This document shows, piece by piece, positions 2,239-8,632 of a DNA stretch of 64,000 bases. Below the pieces are notes generated by a model. It ran no database searches and had not been told where the DNA came from. It saw nothing but the letters and a program-made list of their open reading frames with translations. Position 1 is the first letter of the stretch. Each line of letters begins with the position of its first letter. The stretch lies in the NCBI RefSeq assembly GCF_055900595.2, contig NZ_CM148325.1; one strand, given 5' to 3'. The position numbers and the translations under genes were made by a program.

Positions 2239-3165
2239 GTGGCAGTCGCCATGGATAATGCAATTTTAGAAAACATCTTGCGGCAAGTGCAGCCGCTCAT
2301 TGGTCAGGGTAAAGTCGCGGATTATATTCCGGCGCTGGCGACGGTTGATGGTTCCCGACTGGGCATAGCTATCTGTACCGTTGACGGACAGCTTTTTCAG
2401 GCCGGAGACGCACAAGAACGTTTTTCCATTCAGTCTATTTCCAAAGTGCTGAGTCTCGTTGTCGCCATGCGTCATTACTCCGAAGAGGAAATCTGGCAAC
2501 GCGTCGGCAAAGATCCGTCTGGATCACCGTTTAATTCCCTGGTGCAACTCGAAATGGAGCAGGGTATTCCGCGTAATCCGTTTATAAATGCCGGTGCGCT
2601 GGTGGTCTGCGATATGTTGCAAGGGCGCTTAAGCGCGCCACGGCAACGTATGCTGGAAGTTGTCCGCGGCTTAAGCGGAGTGTCTGATATTTCCTACGAT
2701 ACGGTGGTAGCGCGTTCCGAATTTGAACACTCCGCGCGAAATGCGGCTATCGCCTGGCTGATGAAGTCGTTTGGCAATTTCCATCATGACGTGACAACCG
2801 TTCTGCAAAACTACTTTCATTACTGCGCTCTGAAAATGAGCTGTGTAGAGCTGGCCCGGACGTTTGTCTTTCTGGCTAATCAGGGGAAAGCTATTCATAT
2901 TGATGAACCTGTGGTGACGCCAATGCAGGCGCGGCAAATTAACGCACTGATGGCGACCAGTGGTATGTACCAGAACGCGGGGGAGTTTGCCTGGCGGGTG
3001 GGACTACCAGCGAAATCTGGCGTCGGCGGCGGTATTGTGGCGATTGTTCCGCATGAAATGGCCATCGCTGTCTGGAGTCCGGAACTGGATGATGCAGGTA
3101 ACTCGCTTGCGGGCATTGCTGTCCTTGAACAATTGACGAAACAATTAGGGCGTTCGGTTTATTAA
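2239..3165 (+). CDS. glsB: Glutaminase 2
   Basis: 308-aa ORF, serine-dependent glutaminase family; matches recall of E. coli GlsB/YneH; immediately downstream of sad. Confidence 0.9.
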
Positions 3166-3524
3166 TGCAGTCTCTCGATCCACTCTTCGCGCGTTTATCC
3201 CGTTCAAAATTTCGCTCTCGCTTTCGTTTGGGTGTGAAAGAGCGTCAGTATTGTCTGGAGAAAGGCGCGCCAGTCATCGAACAACATGCGGCGGATTTTG
3301 TCTCTAAACGTCTTGCTCCGGCATTACCGGCTAACGACGGTAAGCAAACCCCCATGCGCGGGCATCCGGTGTTTATCGCTCAGCACGCCACTGCAACCTG
3401 TTGTCGCGGTTGTCTGGCTAAGTGGCATAACATTCCGCAGGGTGTTTCGTTAAGCGAGGAACAACAACGTTATATCGTGTCGGTAATCTATCACTGGTTG
3501 GTTATACAGATGAATCAGCCATGA
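3165..3524 (+). CDS. yneG: Conserved small protein of unknown function (YneG-like)
   Basis: 119-aa ORF whose start overlaps the glsB stop, suggesting translational coupling in a sad-glsB-yneG operon. Confidence 0.75.
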   Translation: MQSLDPLFARLSRSKFRSRFRLGVKERQYCLEKGAPVIEQHAADFVSKRLAPALPANDGKQTPMRGHPVFIAQHATATCCRGCLAKWHNIPQGVSLSEEQQRYIVSVIYHWLVIQMNQP

Positions 3525-3662
3525 TAATTGCGGAAAACGATAAAATAGCATTCCCAGGATATCTTTATTTGCCGCCGCTGTCAGCGAACATGCTATCCTT
3601 TATGAGAATTTACTTATTACGTTGAGATAATTGCCACCCGCAATTGTATGGACAGATAATTA

Positions 3663-5081
3663 ATGCATGTACAGCCCATTTCAACTTTCCGTTTGTTCCA
3701 GGAAGGTCATCTGCTACGTAATAGCATCGCTATTTTTGTGCTAACCACGCTGTTCTATTTTATTGGTGCAGAGTTACGGCTGGTTCACGAACTTTCTCTT
3801 TTCTGGCCGCTGAATGGCGTAATGGCGGGGGTGTTTGCCCGCTATGTCTGGCTTAATCGACTGCATTACTATGCGATCAGTTATGTGGCAATGCTGGTTT
3901 ATGATGCCATAACCACCGAATGGGGGCTGGTTTCACTGGCTATCAATTTCTCCAATATGATGTTTATTGTTACCGTCGCCTTACTGGTCGCGCGGGATAA
4001 GCGTCTGGGGAAAAATAAGTACGAGCCAGTAAGTGCCTTACGGCTATTTAATTACTGTCTGATTGCCGCATTATTATGCGCTATTGTCGGGGCGATTGGT
4101 TCGGTCAGTATTGATAGTTTGGATTTCTGGCCTTTGCTTGCCGACTGGTTCAGTGAGCAATTCTCAACGGGCGTGTTGATCGTGCCTTGTATGCTGACGT
4201 TGGCAATTCCTGGAGTGCTGCCGCGCTTTAAAGCAGAACAGATGATGCCCGCTATCGCGCTTATTGTGTCGGTTGTTGCCTCGGTAGTCATTGGCGGAGC
4301 GGGGAGTCTGGCGTTCCCGCTGCCTGCATTAATCTGGTGTGCAGTGCGCTATACGCCGCAGGTAACATGTCTGTTGACCTTTGTCACCGGTGCGGTGGAA
4401 ATCGTACTGGTGGCAAATTCGGTGATTGATATCTCGGTCGGTTCGCCGTTCTCCATTCCGCAAATGTTCTCCGCACGTCTCGGTATTGCCACGATGGCGA
4501 TATGCCCAATTATGGTTTCTTTTAGCGTGGCAGCGATCAATTCGCTAATGAAGCAAGTTGCGCTGCGAGCCGACTTTGATTTTCTGACTCAGGTTTACTC
4601 ACGGTCCGGTCTTTATGAGGCGCTGAAAAGGCCATCGCTGAAACAGACACAACATCTGACTGTCATGCTGCTTGATATCGACTATTTCAAAAGCATTAAC
4701 GATAACTATGGACATGAATGTGGCGATAAAGTGTTAAGCGTGTTTGCCCAGCATATTCAAAAGATTGTCGGTGATAAGGGGCTGGTGGCGCGAATGGGCG
4801 GCGAAGAATTTGCTGTTGCAGTGCCATCGGTGAATCCTGTCGATGGTCTGCTAATGGCGGAAAAAATCCGTAAAGGCGTTGAACTGCAACCGTTCACCTG
4901 GCAACAAAAAACGCTTTATCTCACGGTAAGTATTGGCGTCGGTAGTGGTTGCGCATCGTACCGAACGCTGACCGATGACTTTAATAAATTGATGGTCGAA
5001 GCCGATACATGTCTGTATCGCTCGAAGAAAGATGGGCGCAACCGTACCAGCACTATGCGTTACGGTGAGGAAGTTGTCTGA
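3663..5081 (+). CDS. dgcF: Membrane-anchored diguanylate cyclase (GGDEF domain)
   Basis: 472-aa ORF; N-terminal ~300 aa strongly hydrophobic (multiple predicted TM helices), C-terminal GGDEF domain with RMGGEEF active-site motif. Start codon choice uncertain. Confidence 0.75.
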   Translation: MHVQPISTFRLFQEGHLLRNSIAIFVLTTLFYFIGAELRLVHELSLFWPLNGVMAGVFARYVWLNRLHYYAISYVAMLVYDAITTEWGLVSLAINFSNMMFIVTVALLVARDKRLGKNKYEPVSALRLFNYCLIAALLCAIVGAIGSVSIDSLDFWPLLADWFSEQFSTGVLIVPCMLTLAIPGVLPRFKAEQMMPAIALIVSVVASVVIGGAGSLAFPLPALIWCAVRYTPQVTCLLTFVTGAVEIVLVANSVIDISVGSPFSIPQMFSARLGIATMAICPIMVSFSVAAINSLMKQVALRADFDFLTQVYSRSGLYEALKRPSLKQTQHLTVMLLDIDYFKSINDNYGHECGDKVLSVFAQHIQKIVGDKGLVARMGGEEFAVAVPSVNPVDGLLMAEKIRKGVELQPFTWQQKTLYLTVSIGVGSGCASYRTLTDDFNKLMVEADTCLYRSKKDGRNRTSTMRYGEEVV

Positions 5082-5253
5082 CATCTTTATTCATTCAGAG
5101 CGTTTTAAATACAATGTGTTCTACCACTTTATGTTCCAAGAAAAGGCGTATTTCCTCGATTAAACCATGATCCGCGCCACACTTTTCTCATAAAACTGCT
5201 CATTAATCATCAGGAGTTGATCAAAACAGGGGTTCGGCGTATTAAAGTTTGCT

Positions 5254-5280
5254 AACCTGTCGTACCAATTCAAACAGGTT
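5254..5280. promoter_or_regulatory. Inverted repeat AACCTGT-N13-ACAGGTT upstream of uxaB; candidate ExuR/UxuR-type operator
   Basis: Seen directly in sequence about 30 bp upstream of the uxaB GTG start; uxaB is known to be ExuR-regulated, but the site assignment is inference. Confidence 0.3.
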
Positions 5281-5307
5281 GTATGACTAATCAGAAGGGA
5301 ACCCATT

Positions 5308-6759
5308 GTGAAAACACTAAATCGTCGCGATTTTCCCGGTGCACAGTATCCAGAACGTATCATTCAGTTTGGTGAAGGTAACTTCCTGCGCGCCTTTGTT
5401 GACTGGCAAATCGATCTCCTGAATGAGCACACCGATCTGAATTCTGGCGTGGTCGTTGTTCGTCCGATTGAAACTTCATTCCCGCCGTCATTGAGCACGC
5501 AGGATGGTCTGTACACCACCATTATCCGTGGTTTGAATGAGAAGGGGGAGGCGGTCAGCGACGCGCGTCTGATTCGCTCGGTTAATCGTGAAATCAGCGT
5601 CTACAGTGAATACGATGAATTCCTGAAACTGGCGCACAACCCGGAAATGCGCTTTGTTTTCTCTAACACCACCGAAGCGGGTATCAGCTACCATGCGGGC
5701 GATAAATTCGATGACGCGCCAGCGGTAAGTTATCCGGCAAAACTGACCCGTCTGCTGTTCGAACGTTTTAGCCATTTCAACGGAGCGCAGGATAAAGGTT
5801 GGATCATCATCCCATGTGAACTGATCGACTATAACGGCGATGCACTGCGTGAACTGGTGCTGCGCTACGCGCAAGAGTGGGCACTACCAGAAGCATTTAT
5901 TCAATGGCTGGATCAGGCTAACAGCTTCTGTTCTACGCTGGTGGACCGTATCGTTACCGGTTATCCGCGTGATGAAGTGGCTAAACTGGAAGAAGAACTG
6001 GGTTATCACGATGGTTTCCTCGACACCGCTGAACACTTTTACCTGTTTGTGATTCAGGGGCCGAAATCCTTAGCGACTGAGCTGCGTCTGGACAAATATC
6101 CGCTCAACGTGCTGATTGTTGACGATATTAAACCGTATAAAGAGCGCAAAGTGGCAATCCTCAACGGTGCACACACGGCGCTGGTGCCGGTGGCGTTCCA
6201 GGCCGGGCTGGATACTGTAGGTGAAGCGATGAACGATGCTGAAATTTGTGCATTCGTTGAAAAAGCCATCTACGAAGAGATTATTCCGGTACTGGATTTG
6301 CCTCGTGATGAACTGGAATCTTTCGCCAGTGCAGTCACCGGACGTTTCCGTAATCCGTACATCAAGCATCAGCTGCTGTCTATCGCGCTTAACGGTATGA
6401 CCAAGTTCCGCACCCGTATCCTGCCGCAACTGCTGGCAGGGCAGAAGGCAAACGGCACCCTTCCGGCGCGCCTTACTTTCGCATTAGCGGCATTGATTGC
6501 GTTTTATCGCGGTGAGCGTAACGGAGAAACATATCCGGTACAGGACGATGCCCACTGGCTGGAACGTTATCAGCAACTCTGGAGCCAGCATCGTGACCGT
6601 GTTATCGGCACCCAGGAACTGGTTGCTATTGTGTTGGCTGAAAAAGACCACTGGGAGCTGGACCTGACGCAAGTGCCTGGTCTGGTCCAGCTGGTTGCTA
6701 ATGACCTGGATGCAATTCTCGAAAAAGGAATGCGCGAAGCTGTACGTCCGTTGTGCTAA
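5308..6759 (+). CDS. uxaB: Altronate oxidoreductase (tagaturonate reductase)
   Basis: 483-aa ORF starting at GTG with GAAGGGA RBS; N-terminus [30 protein letters not shown] matches recall of UxaB. Confidence 0.9.
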
Positions 6760-6955: not shown

Positions 6956-7870
6956 ATGATCGTTCGTCCACAACAACACTGGCTGCGCCGTATTTTTGTC
7001 TGGCACGGTTCAGTATTATCCAAGATATCCTCACGCTTACTACTTAATTTTCTCTTTTCTACTGCCGTTATTTTCATGCTGCCCTGGTACACGCATCTGG
7101 GTATTAAATTTACCCTCGCACCATTCAGCATTCTCGGTGTCGCCATCGCCATTTTTCTTGGTTTTCGTAATAATGCCGGGTACGCCCGTTACGTTGAAGC
7201 GCGAAAACTTTGGGGGCAGTTGATGATTGCCTCACGGTCGTTACTGCGCGAGGTAAAAACGACATTGCCGGATTCGGCAAGTGTAAGGGAGTTTGCACGG
7301 CTGCAAATCGCCTTCGCCCACTGTTTACGCATGACATTACGCAAACAACCACAGGCGGAAGTGCTGGCACATTATCTCAAGACTGAAGATCTTCAGCGTG
7401 TACTGGCTTCAAACACTCCAGCTAACCGTATTTTGTTGATAATGGGGGAGTGGTTGGCGGTTCAGCGACGCAATGGACAGCTTTCAGATATCCTGTTTAT
7501 TAGCCTCAACGATCGGCTTAACGATATTTCAGCGGTTCTGGCAGGCTGCGAGCGCATTGCCTACACGCCAATTCCCTTTGCCTACACCCTGATTTTGCAT
7601 CGTACCGTTTATCTGTTTTGTATCATGCTGCCGTTCGCGCTGGTCGTGGACCTGCATTACATGACGCCATTTATCTCTGTGCTGATTTCCTACACTTTTA
7701 TTTCGCTGGATTGTCTGGCGGAAGAGCTGGAAGATCCGTTCGGTACTGAAAACAATGATTTACCGCTGGATGCCATCTGCAACGCTATTGAAATTGACCT
7801 GTTACAGATGAACGATGAAACAGAAATTCCAGCAAAAATTCTTCCCGATCGTCATTACCAGCTGACGTAA
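6956..7870 (+). CDS. yneE: Bestrophin-like membrane protein (YneE/UPF0187 family)
   Basis: Long ORF 6905-7870; I place the start at the internal Met (MIVRPQQHW...) to give ~304 aa as recalled for YneE; hydrophobic helices present. Confidence 0.75.
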   Translation: MIVRPQQHWLRRIFVWHGSVLSKISSRLLLNFLFSTAVIFMLPWYTHLGIKFTLAPFSILGVAIAIFLGFRNNAGYARYVEARKLWGQLMIASRSLLREVKTTLPDSASVREFARLQIAFAHCLRMTLRKQPQAEVLAHYLKTEDLQRVLASNTPANRILLIMGEWLAVQRRNGQLSDILFISLNDRLNDISAVLAGCERIAYTPIPFAYTLILHRTVYLFCIMLPFALVVDLHYMTPFISVLISYTFISLDCLAEELEDPFGTENNDLPLDAICNAIEIDLLQMNDETEIPAKILPDRHYQLT

Positions 7871-7873
7871 TAT

Positions 7874-8632
7874 TTACTCCGTACGCCGGGCAACAATAAA
7901 CAGACGCGGAAATGCCAGCAGTATCTGTCCGTTCTCTTGCAGTGGATACTGCTCTTCCAGCATCTGATGGTAGCGCGTAACAAAATGCTGCTGTTCGCTC
8001 TCGGTCAGATCCTGTAACCACGGACGTAATCCAGTGGCGGTCACCCAGTCAATAATCGCCTGGTGCGACGGCATCTGGTGATAGTAAGTGGTTCGCCAGA
8101 TATCGACCTCGCATCCGGCTTCACTCAAAATATCGTAGTAAGCATGAACGCCAGCCAGCGGCTCACGCCCGCGATCCGGGTAGTTTTGTTTCCAGGCGAC
8201 TTCGCGCATGAGCACATGGGTAGGCTCCAGCCAGTTATCCGGCATTTGTACCGCCAGCACGCCCTGCGGACTGAGTAACGAAACCAGATGAGGGAACAGT
8301 TCGTAATGGTCGGGCAGCCATTGCAGCGAGGCATTAGCAAAAATCAGATCGAGTGCCTGTTCCGGTTGCCAGTTGCGGATGTCTGCTTCCACGAACTGGC
8401 AGTCTGGCAAAGCACTGCGCGCTTCAGCAATCATCGCCGGAGACGAGTCGATGCCTGTTATCCTGGCCGCAGGCCAACGTTGATGCAGCAGGGCGGTGCT
8501 GTTACCTGGGCCACAGCCAAGATCGGCAACGTATTCGATATTCTCCAGCGGCACTCTGGCAAGCAGCTCCACCGCCGGACGCGATCGTTCAGCGGCAAAG
8601 TGCAGATATAAAGAGGGGTTCCAGTCAGACAT
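7874..8632 (-). CDS. tam: Trans-aconitate 2-methyltransferase
   Basis: 252-aa ORF with SAM-methyltransferase motif ([12 protein letters not shown]); matches recall of Tam. Confidence 0.9.

What the first reader, a model, noticed from the sequence alone, without database searches (positions are those of the whole stretch)
3663..5081. DgcF has a long polytopic N-terminal domain of unknown sensory function
The GGDEF domain occupies only the last ~170 aa; the first ~300 aa are a multi-helix membrane domain with no recognisable ligand-binding motif, so the signal controlling this cyclase is unknown. If older annotations use a shorter protein (my recollection is uncertain), the true start also needs verification.
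Basis: inference. Interest (0 to 1): 0.2.

Follow-up and report, generated by a model that had tools for sequence, protein, structure and literature searches.

The report
Intact DgcF cyclase, MASE1-like membrane sensor
This is the intact form of the known E. coli c-di-GMP synthase gene dgcF; its long membrane domain was already described in 2014, and here it proves to be a diverged copy of the known MASE1 sensor domain, while the shorter lab-strain (K-12) protein results from a 498-base deletion and not from a different start site.

Summary
The ORF is real. Window 3663-5081 (+) encodes 472 aa, and NCBI annotates the same coordinates in a 99.9 % identical genome. The GGDEF domain covers residues 303-461, with an intact GGEEF active site and no RxxD feedback site. 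Residues ~17-296 form ten membrane helices, with both ends in the cytoplasm.

The start at 3663 is secure. A TAA stop lies two codons upstream. Orthologues in five genera start at the same place. Codons 1-157 are as constrained as the catalytic domain.

The 315-aa K-12 protein is not a start-site problem. K-12 lacks window 3598-4095, which holds the promoter region, ribosome-binding site, start codon and 144 codons. The identical deletion junction is in 1216 of 5426 complete E. coli genomes. All of this was published in 2014.

The input signal remains unknown. This is an ordinary, known gene of low interest.

The parts
3663..5081 (+). dgcF (yneF) coding sequence, full-length allele: 472 codons plus TGA stop
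   Evidence: The ORF list shows it. PGAP annotates the identical CDS in a 99.9 % identical genome. Orthologues of 472-484 aa occur in E. fergusonii, Citrobacter, Enterobacter and Lelliottia.
3657..3659 (+). In-frame TAA stop two codons upstream of the ATG; it rules out any upstream extension of the ORF
   Evidence: Read directly from the sequence.
3602..3660 (+). Two overlapping sigma-70-like promoter matches: ATGAGA-18-TGnGATAAT at 3602-3631 and TTGCCA-18-GATAAT at 3631-3660. A weak GGA Shine-Dalgarno-like element lies at 3650-3652. All of these lie inside the segment that K-12 lacks.
   Evidence: These are consensus scan matches only: 6 sites found against 3.5 +/- 1.8 in shuffles. An 'ATGGA' placed 11-12 nt before the ATG is also present in Enterobacter. 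Richter 2014 reports weak, mainly RpoS-dependent expression of the full-length gene and none in K-12.
3711..4550 (+). MASE1-like membrane sensor domain (residues ~17-296). Ten TM helices, N-in and C-in: 17-37, 49-60, 67-84, 89-111, 122-151, 155-179, 191-210, 219-229, 232-251, 265-296.
   Evidence: Helices come from the AF2 model, pLDDT 91.9. K+R counts are 10 inside and 1 outside. 59 of 86 family members hit Pfam MASE1, and two of the twenty members scanned individually score above the gathering cut-off. The family profile finds the DgcE MASE1 domain at E 2.1e-9 and none of 11 control membrane proteins. hhalign gives 91 % probability.
3598..4095 (+). 498-bp segment that is absent from K-12-type alleles. 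It holds the putative promoter, ribosome-binding site, ATG and codons 1-144 plus one base of codon 145.
   Evidence: The window/K-12 alignment and the K-12 junction sequence ATGCTATC|TTGGTTCGG define it. The segment is present in 4196 of 5426 complete genomes. The K-12 junction 56-mer is present in 1216 of 5426, of which 1212 are >=99 % identical.
4134..4136 (+). TTG codon (Leu158 here) that serves as the annotated start of the 315-aa K-12 'DgcF'
   Evidence: K-12 b1522 is 948 bp and ends at the same stop codon. Counting back from window 5081 gives position 4134.
4455..4574 (+). TM10 continuing as one unbroken helix (residues 265-304) out of the membrane and into the GGDEF domain; the presumed signal-transmitting element
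   Evidence: AF2 secondary structure shows helix H265-304 followed directly by the first GGDEF strand at 311. S270, R272, G274 and P282 are nearly invariant.
4569..5045 (+). GGDEF catalytic domain (residues 303-461)
4797..4811 (+). GGEEF active-site (A-site) motif, residues 379-383. The I-site position (residues 370-373) reads GDKG instead of RxxD.
   Evidence: Read from the sequence. GGEEF is present in 77 of 86 family members. RxxD is present in 50 of 86 but absent from the 12 closest sequences, including this one. This agrees with Richter 2014.

Best explanation
Window 3663-5081 is the intact allele of the known E. coli gene dgcF (yneF). It encodes an inner-membrane diguanylate cyclase.

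Shown here:
- Translation starts at the ATG at 3663.
- Residues ~17-296 form ten TM helices, with the N-terminus and the catalytic domain in the cytoplasm.
- This domain belongs to a family of about 440 clusters (representatives at 50 % identity). Most members carry it in front of a GGDEF domain and a few in front of a hybrid histidine kinase.
- The family is a diverged branch of the MASE1 sensor-domain superfamily.
- TM10 runs as one continuous helix into a GGDEF domain with an intact GGEEF site and no RxxD inhibitory site.
- The 315-aa K-12 protein is what remains after a 498-bp deletion, not an alternative start.

Inferred mechanism: like other GGDEF enzymes, DgcF must pair two catalytic domains to condense two GTP molecules.
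- The MASE1-like bundle probably perceives a signal in its periplasm-proximal half. Nearly all of the invariant polar residues sit there: R39, W48, N51, D81, N98, W162, S270 and R272.
- The signal could be a small molecule in an S-component-like pocket or a docking partner protein.
- Either would re-pack TM10 in the homodimer, and TM10 would set the geometry of the two GGDEF domains.
- Output is not limited by product feedback.

The signal itself is unknown.
For: Identity and start:
- The ORF and annotation agree.
- An in-frame stop lies at 3657-3659.
- Orthologue starts and lengths are conserved.
- For codons 1-157, pN is 0.22 and pS 0.74. For the GGDEF domain the values are 0.24 and 0.74.

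Family:
- The orthologue profile finds 442 representatives at E<=1e-3 and 285 at E<=1e-10.
- Two members carry HisKA-HATPase-REC(-Hpt) in place of GGDEF.

MASE1 link:
- 59 of 86 members hit PF05231, best E 3.2e-11, and the matches are collinear over the whole domain.
- P0186 scores 41.0 bits and P0194 31.3 bits against a cut-off of 29.8.
- P0186 is 30 % identical to the window domain over 282 aa, E 5e-22.
- The family profile hits the DgcE MASE1 domain at E 2.1e-9, with no hit to 11 control membrane proteins.
- hhalign gives 91.3 % probability, against 2.8 % or less for controls.
- The DgcF clade against the distant members gives 100 %, E 7e-59.
- Motifs correspond: FWPxN to LWFPT, N98, W162, P175, and WCAxR to WSAVR.
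- The ~300-aa length and ten TM segments match the MASE1 description in Pfiffer 2019, PMC6510439.

Structure:
- The AF2 model has pLDDT 91.9, and helix 265-304 runs into the GGDEF domain.

Activity:
- Full-length Shigella DgcF makes c-di-GMP (PMC11327459).
- The CFT073 yneF deletion is complemented by the cyclase WspR (PMC3484386).
- The K-12 allele is not expressed, and no DGC activity (motility inhibition) was seen when it was expressed ectopically.
Against: - The window protein itself gives no Pfam MASE1 hit at E<=1.
- The narrow orthologue-only profile sees neither DgcE, PdeF nor UhpB.
- The broad family profile finds DgcE but not PdeF or UhpB.
- The hhalign probability is 91 %, not above 99 %. 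It falls to 65 % against a crude three-sequence MASE1 alignment.
- The clustering of conserved polar residues on the periplasmic side is read from one-dimensional topology, not from coordinates.
- No ligand or partner is known.
- Gene neighbourhood is conserved only among close relatives.
Confidence: 0.85

Rival explanations
1. The MASE1-like domain does not bind a small ligand. It is a docking surface for another protein that carries the signal, as in DgcE (RdcA GTPase docks on MASE1). From my own knowledge, UhpB receives the glucose-6-phosphate signal from UhpC in the same way.
For: Pfiffer 2019 shows that RdcA acts directly on the DgcE MASE1 domain and proposes docking as a general MASE1 role. 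DgcE is also the MASE1 protein that the DgcF family profile finds.
Against: No conserved neighbouring partner gene exists beyond close relatives. The invariant polar residues lie mostly on the periplasmic side, whereas RdcA is cytoplasmic. The S-component-like fold is a ligand-binding fold in its known representatives (PMC11109136).
Confidence: 0.3
2. The N-terminal domain is only a membrane anchor and dimerisation device. DgcF is constitutively active and is controlled only by its weak, RpoS-dependent transcription.
For: [quoted passage not shown] Expression is weak and RpoS-dependent. There is no I-site.
Against: A plain anchor would not keep about 24 nearly invariant positions across homologues only ~25-30 % identical. 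These include the buried polar residues R39, N51, R60, D81, N98, S270 and R272. Nor would it recur in front of histidine kinases.
Confidence: 0.1
3. One reading: translation really begins far downstream (for example Met54 or the K-12-type TTG at 4134), so the membrane domain, or much of it, is not part of the protein.
For: The K-12 annotation uses the downstream TTG. The Shine-Dalgarno element before the ATG at 3663 is weak.
Against: K-12 uses the TTG only because its first 144 codons are deleted. Codons 1-157 are under the same constraint as the catalytic domain. They contain nearly invariant family residues and fold confidently with the rest. A protein starting at residue 158 would have five TM helices. 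Its N-terminus would then lie in the periplasm, and the conserved half of the domain would be missing.
Confidence: 0.02

Closest known systems
Full-length DgcF/YneF as described by Richter et al. 2014 (EMBO Mol Med, PMC4287979) in EAEC O104:H4 and EHEC O157:H7; studied functionally in UPEC CFT073 and Shigella flexneri
   Same: Same gene and same architecture: a ~300-aa hydrophobic N-terminus plus a GGDEF domain with an intact A-site and no I-site. K-12 is recognised there as 5'-truncated by a deletion.
   Different: [quoted passage not shown] Here it is linked to MASE1, which E. coli also has in DgcE, PdeF and UhpB and, per Pfiffer 2019, in PdeA. The window allele differs from the representative of the largest E. 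coli protein cluster at 9 residues.
MASE1 domain (Pfam PF05231) of E. coli DgcE
   Same: About 300 aa at the N-terminus, with ten TM segments, preceding c-di-GMP or kinase output domains. The profile hit is E 2e-9 and hhalign gives 91 % over 218 columns. The motifs (L/F)WxP, N in TM4, W in TM6, P in TM6 and W(C/S)AxR are shared.
   Different: Only 15 % identity in the hhalign alignment. DgcF couples TM10 directly to GGDEF, whereas DgcE has three PAS domains in between. The DgcF sequence itself is below Pfam detection. Whether RdcA/RdcB-type partners act on DgcF is unknown.
K-12 'DgcF' (b1522, 315 aa)
   Same: Residues 159-472 are the same protein, with a few substitutions.
   Different: It lacks window 3598-4095, which holds the promoter region, ribosome-binding site, ATG and TM1-TM5 with the conserved R39, W48, N51, R60, D81 and N98. 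It is annotated from a TTG with no obvious Shine-Dalgarno element. It is not expressed in W3110, and its over-expression does not inhibit motility.
ECF-transporter S-components (RibU, ThiT, FolT, BtuM) and the S-component fold reported in 5TMR-LYT sensor kinases such as BtsS and YpdA (PMC11109136)
   Different: Ten helices here rather than six or seven. No significant sequence similarity: only one family member matches Pfam ECF-ribofla_trS, at E 0.006. From my own knowledge E. coli has no ECF module. The published paper does not mention MASE1. Which helices correspond could not be determined.
DgcC/AdrA (MASE2-GGDEF) and other TM-GGDEF cyclases
   Same: A polytopic membrane domain fused directly to a GGDEF domain.
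   Different: No MASE2 hit, and no MASE3-9, MHYT, 5TMR-LYT or 7TMR-DISM hit at family level. One member matches MASE9 at E 0.014.

Membership tests
GGDEF diguanylate cyclases (PF00990 / TIGR00254) | Full-length match to the GGDEF profile above the curated cut-off | tested here: met
   [not shown]
GGDEF diguanylate cyclases (PF00990 / TIGR00254) | Catalytic GG(D/E)EF A-site and conserved substrate- and metal-binding residues | tested here: met
   GGEEF lies at residues 379-383. D338, D340, K343, N346, D347, H351, D355, R377, K455 and R459 are nearly invariant in the family alignment. Enzymatic activity was shown for the Shigella orthologue in the literature, not tested here.
GGDEF diguanylate cyclases (PF00990 / TIGR00254) | RxxD allosteric I-site (common in the family but not defining) | tested here: not met
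   Residues 370-373 read GDKG. RxxD is present in 50 of 86 family members but in none of the 12 closest. This agrees with Richter 2014.
MASE1 sensor domain (PF05231) | The protein itself matches the Pfam MASE1 model at or above the gathering score (29.8 bits) | tested here: not met
   No MASE1 hit for the window protein even at E<=1. The precomputed Pfam annotation of all close orthologues lists only PF00990.
MASE1 sensor domain (PF05231) | Homology to bona fide MASE1 through intermediate sequences and profile comparison | tested here: met
   59 of 86 family members hit MASE1 at E<=0.1. P0186 scores 41.0 bits and P0194 31.3 bits, both above the cut-off. Window against P0186 gives 30 % identity over 282 aa, E 5e-22. 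The family profile finds DgcE MASE1 at E 2.1e-9 and 0 of 11 controls. hhalign gives 91.3 %. PdeF and UhpB are not reached.
MASE1 sensor domain (PF05231) | A hydrophobic N-terminal domain of ~290-300 aa with ten TM segments, placed before signalling output domains (GGDEF, EAL, histidine kinase) | tested here: met
   Ten helices lie between residues 17 and 296. K+R counts are 10 inside and 1 outside. Output domains are GGDEF in 83 of 86 members and HisKA-HATPase-REC in 2. The definition comes from Pfiffer 2019.
ECF S-component fold / 5TMR-LYT-type receptors | Six-helix S-component fold | tested here: inconclusive
   [not shown]
ECF S-component fold / 5TMR-LYT-type receptors | Match to Pfam ECF_trnsprt, ECF-ribofla_trS or 5TMR_LYT, or association with an EcfT/EcfA module | tested here: not met
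   No such Pfam hit for the window protein. One of 86 members matches ECF-ribofla_trS at E 0.006. No ECF genes appear in the neighbourhoods examined.
Other membrane sensor domains (MASE2-9, MHYT, 7TMR-DISM, CHASE) | Pfam profile match | tested here: not met
   None matches the window protein. Among 86 members the only such hit is one to MASE9 at E 0.014.

The most novel reading that the evidence does not exclude
MASE1 domains, represented here by the high-confidence DgcF model, may contain the ECF S-component fold. That fold has already been linked to 5TMR-LYT sensor kinases and MreD. If so, MASE1 would be an intramembrane small-molecule receptor. In DgcF a ligand pocket would be lined by the invariant R39, N51, D81, N98, W162 and R272 in the outer-leaflet half, rather than the domain being a purely protein-docking or poorly ordered module. 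That would bring MASE1, a sensor domain recurring in bacterial c-di-GMP enzymes and histidine kinases, into the transporter-to-receptor fold lineage. It would also give a concrete set of residues for ligand hunting.
Probability: 0.3. Interest if true: 0.5.

Novelty: already known. Interest (0 to 1): 0.2.

Why it matters
For annotation: a K-12-style 315-aa model would be wrong for this window. The 472-aa protein is the ancestral, functional form, and about 22 % of complete E. coli genomes, including the K-12 strains, carry a promoter-less, 5'-truncated remnant. Experiments on 'DgcF' in K-12 therefore say little about the real enzyme.

For function: placing the N-domain in the MASE1 superfamily replaces 'unique hydrophobic domain' with a testable frame. 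That frame offers docking partners as in DgcE, or an S-component-like ligand pocket, and a short list of invariant intramembrane residues to mutate.

The signal itself remains unknown, so the gain is incremental.

Tried and rejected
- Single-sequence AlphaFold2 gave a useless model (pLDDT 39). I discarded it in favour of the alignment-based model.
- The afdb50 fold library was unavailable. I therefore could not compare the model with predicted MASE1 structures.
- Foldseek against the PDB returned only GGDEF hits among the 50 listed. It was uninformative for the membrane domain.
- The orthologue-only profile (A2) detects no bona fide MASE1 by hhalign and no PDB sequence at E<=10. The MASE1 link appears only with the broad family profile.
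- PdeF and UhpB MASE1 domains are not detected even by the broad profile.
- I looked for an internal duplication (5+5 or 4+2+4 helices) by hhalign of domain halves and found none, with probabilities of 2 % or less.
- An Rfam scan of 3000-5600 found no RNA family at E<=1. No riboswitch or leader RNA precedes dgcF.
- The terminator scan found none in 3400-5350.
- A 200-bp junction query to count the K-12 deletion was confounded, because the tool joins pieces across the 498-bp gap. I replaced it with a 56-bp junction query.
- Neighbourhoods give no conserved partner gene. glsB-yneG-dgcF is syntenic only among Enterobacteriaceae and not in a 44 %-identical homologue.
- Povolotsky & Hengge 2016 and the 2016 nomenclature paper could not be read. 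I cannot exclude that they or InterPro/CDD already label the domain MASE1. NCBI's name 'sensor domain-containing diguanylate cyclase' hints that a sensor domain is recognised.
Full report
**1. What is at the coordinates**

Window 3663-5081 (+) is a single 472-codon ORF starting with ATG.

The surrounding genes are ptrR, sad, glsB, yneG, then this gene, uxaB, yneE, tam and lsr. That is the E. coli dgcF (yneF) locus.

A 1.8-kb query around the gene matches 5414 of 5426 complete E. coli genomes. The best hits (99.9 % identity) carry a PGAP CDS at exactly these coordinates, named 'sensor domain-containing diguanylate cyclase'.

Pfam and NCBIfam find only a GGDEF domain, at residues 303-461 (E 4e-41, full profile coverage). 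No MASE or other sensor model matches, even at E<=1.

**2. The start codon and the 'shorter older annotation'**

An in-frame TAA lies at 3657-3659, two codons before the ATG. The ORF cannot extend upstream, and the next in-frame ATG is Met54.

Evidence that translation begins at 3663:
- Orthologues from E. fergusonii, Citrobacter, Enterobacter and Lelliottia (71-87 % identical in this domain) start at the equivalent Met. The TM-to-GGDEF junction motif R(A)D(F/Y)D sits at position 300-302 in all of them.
- Residues invariant across the nine aligned orthologues begin at F9, F12, L18, R19 and N20.
- Against the Enterobacter orthologue, codons 1-157 have pN 0.22 and pS 0.74. The GGDEF domain has pN 0.24 and pS 0.74. 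The 5' third is therefore coding sequence under the same constraint.

K-12 MG1655 does annotate a 315-aa DgcF (b1522), but not because of a different choice of start.
- K-12 lacks window 3598-4095, which is 498 bp. Its junction reads ATGCTATC|TTGGTTCGG.
- The deletion removes both promoter-like matches, the weak GGA ribosome-binding element, the ATG and the first 144 codons.
- The K-12 annotation then begins at a TTG equivalent to window 4134, which is Leu158 here.
- The 498-bp segment is present in 4196 of 5426 complete genomes.
- The K-12 junction 56-mer is present in 1216 genomes, 1212 of them at >=99 % identity. This points to one ancestral deletion now found in about 22 % of sequenced complete genomes.

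This is published. Richter et al. 2014 (PMC4287979) reported four things:
- K-12 yneF is 5'-truncated by a deletion.
- The start codon was consequently mis-annotated, and the gene is not expressed in W3110.
- Its GGDEF domain has an intact A-site and no I-site.

Consistent with that, the K-12 protein was the only one of four ectopically expressed membrane cyclases that did not inhibit motility (PMC10127611). Full-length Shigella DgcF does make c-di-GMP and affects acid resistance and invasion (PMC11327459). The CFT073 yneF deletion lowers biofilm formation and adherence, and a heterologous cyclase complements it (PMC3484386).

**3. Anatomy of the N-terminal domain**

Hydropathy shows many TM segments.

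A single-sequence AlphaFold run was useless (pLDDT 39). With an 86-sequence family alignment the model is confident (pLDDT 91.9, pTM 0.85).

It shows ten helices: 17-37, 49-60, 67-84, 89-111, 122-151, 155-179, 191-210, 219-229, 232-251 and 265-304. The last helix continues without a break into the GGDEF domain.

With the GGDEF domain in the cytoplasm, the topology is N-in with ten TM helices. The predicted cytoplasmic loops hold 10 K+R and the periplasmic loops hold 1.

**4. The family and the MASE1 link**

A profile of nine orthologous N-domains, searched against 1.84 billion cluster representatives, finds 442 proteins at E<=1e-3 and 285 at E<=1e-10. Most are 460-500 aa long.

Named members come from Erwinia, Serratia, Pseudomonas, Zavarzinia and a Verrucomicrobiae MAG.

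I aligned 86 full-length members and scanned each against Pfam.
- 83 carry GGDEF.
- 2 carry HisKA-HATPase_c-REC(-Hpt) instead, so the domain is a portable sensor module.
- 59 hit Pfam MASE1 at E<=0.1, with a best E of 3.2e-11.

The MASE1 matches are collinear over the whole domain. For example, P0155 residues 20-289 align to model positions 5-297 of 299.

Two of the twenty members I scanned individually exceed the gathering score of 29.8 bits: P0186 at 41.0 bits and P0194 at 31.3 bits. P0186 is 30 % identical to the window domain over 282 residues, E 5e-22.

For an independent test I took the N-termini of E. coli K-12 DgcE, PdeF and UhpB. Pfam confirms all three as MASE1, at 128, 243 and 62 bits.
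- An HMM of the 86 N-domains hits DgcE residues 11-251 at E 2.1e-9 for a proteome-sized search. It hits none of 11 unrelated polytopic membrane proteins.
- hhalign gives 91.3 % probability over 218 columns. Controls give 2.8 % or less.
- The DgcF clade against the distant members alone gives 100 %, E 7e-59. The distant members alone still reach DgcE at 87 %.
- The alignment pairs the family's signature positions with DgcE: FWP(A/L)N with LWFPT, N98, W162, P175, and WCAxR with WSAVR.

Limits of this evidence:
- The orthologue-only profile sees nothing.
- PdeF and UhpB are not reached.
- Probability drops to 65 % against a crude three-sequence MASE1 alignment.

The size and the ten TM segments agree with the current description of MASE1 in Pfiffer et al. 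2019, PMC6510439. That paper lists DgcE, PdeA and PdeF as the E. coli MASE1 proteins, but not DgcF. No paper in the searchable library connects DgcF with MASE1.

I conclude that the DgcF N-domain is a strongly diverged MASE1-superfamily domain. It fails strict Pfam membership on its own sequence but passes through intermediates and profile comparison.

**5. Conserved residues and fold**

Across homologues only ~25-30 % identical, about 24 N-domain positions are at least 90 % conserved: G35, R39, L44, W48, P49, N51, G56, R60, D81, N98, W162 (invariant), P175, P196, G212, G214, P221, L223, W225, C226, A227, S270, R272, G274 and P282.

Placed on the model's helices and the N-in topology, the polar and aromatic ones (R39, W48, N51, D81, N98, W162, S270, R272) all fall in the periplasm-proximal half. 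Only R60 falls on the cytoplasmic side. This is an inference from one-dimensional positions, because I had no access to coordinates.

A 2024 paper (PMC11109136) showed that this fold is reused in 5TMR-LYT sensor kinases and MreD, but it does not mention MASE1.

There is no supporting sequence signal, and I could not learn which helices align. I treat this as a lead, not a result.

**6. Mechanism**

Shown:
- An intact catalytic GGDEF domain with a GGEEF site and conserved substrate- and metal-binding positions.
- No RxxD I-site. The position reads GDKG, while 50 of 86 family members keep RxxD.
- TM10 and the GGDEF domain are joined by one continuous helix, with only about eight residues between the membrane exit and the DxLT start of the domain.

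Inferred: the enzyme works as a homodimer. A change in the MASE1-like bundle re-packs TM10 and so sets the relative position of the two GGDEF domains. Output has no product feedback.

The nature of the signal is open. I put a small ligand in a periplasm-side pocket at roughly 0.3-0.4. A docking partner, as for DgcE-RdcA, is at about 0.3. A plain anchor is at about 0.1.

Gene context (sad-glsB-yneG upstream) is conserved into Enterobacter but not further. No RNA element precedes the gene.

**7. Comparison and verdict**

The gene, its architecture, the K-12 deletion and the 'unknown sensor' status are all in the literature, so the finding is already known.

- The MASE1 assignment.
- The population frequency of the deletion allele (1216 of 5426 genomes, one junction).
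- The loss of the I-site relative to the wider family.
- A possible S-component-like fold.

Interest is low (0.2). The S-component and MASE1 idea is the only part that could matter more broadly.

Noticed in passing
window 3598-4095 (absent in K-12-type genomes): The K-12 5' deletion of dgcF is not a laboratory oddity. The identical junction 56-mer occurs in 1216 of 5426 complete E. coli genomes, 1212 of them at >=99 % identity. The 498-bp segment is present in 4196 genomes. The two counts add up to almost all genomes that have the locus, so this looks like one ancestral event.
   Followed up: yes
window 3663-~4580 joined to ~24993 (ORF 23736-25115, +), and window 3663-~4376 joined to ~7748 (yneE): Public protein sets contain chimeras. 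P0003 (514 aa) is DgcF residues 1-~306 fused to the C-terminal part of HipA. P0124 (550 aa) is DgcF residues 1-~178 fused to a HipA-type tail that maps to the same window ORF. P0058 is DgcF residues 1-~238 fused to the bestrophin-family YneE. These imply deletions of a few kb to about 20 kb downstream of dgcF in some strains, so the locus seems deletion-prone.
   Followed up: partly
window 4770-4781 (residues 370-373): The wider DgcF/MASE1-GGDEF family mostly keeps the RxxD inhibitory site (50 of 86 members). The enterobacterial DgcF clade has lost it (GDKG, GEDG, SNQG and similar).
   Followed up: yes
L006/L007 (Enterobacter) 2953-4542 and 7560-8525: In Enterobacter the syntenic locus has an extra methyl-accepting chemotaxis protein gene between sad and glsB. 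It also has a second cyclase gene (GAF-GGDEF) and an acetyltransferase gene directly downstream of dgcF. All three are absent from the window.
   Followed up: no
window 3903-3905 (codon 81): The representative of the largest E. coli DgcF cluster (P0009, 9487 member sequences) has Y81. The window and 109 of 110 other homologues examined have the conserved D81. It is probably a peculiarity of that one representative, but it changes a nearly invariant intramembrane acidic residue.
   Followed up: partly
window 3400-5200: This dgcF allele is uncommon. Only 33 of 5416 matching records are >=99 % identical over 1.8 kb, and all the others are 95-99 % identical. The window therefore comes from a less-sampled E. 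coli lineage.
   Followed up: no
[not shown]
   Followed up: no
K-12 L002 6866-6921 (junction), equivalent to window 3590-3597 plus 4096 onward: In K-12 the intergenic ATG at window 3590 is brought next to dgcF codon 145 but is out of frame. It opens only an 8-codon ORF (ATG CTA TCT TGG TTC GGT CAG TAT TGA). The dgcF reading frame has no ATG, GTG or TTG before the annotated TTG. This fits an untranslated remnant.
   Followed up: partly
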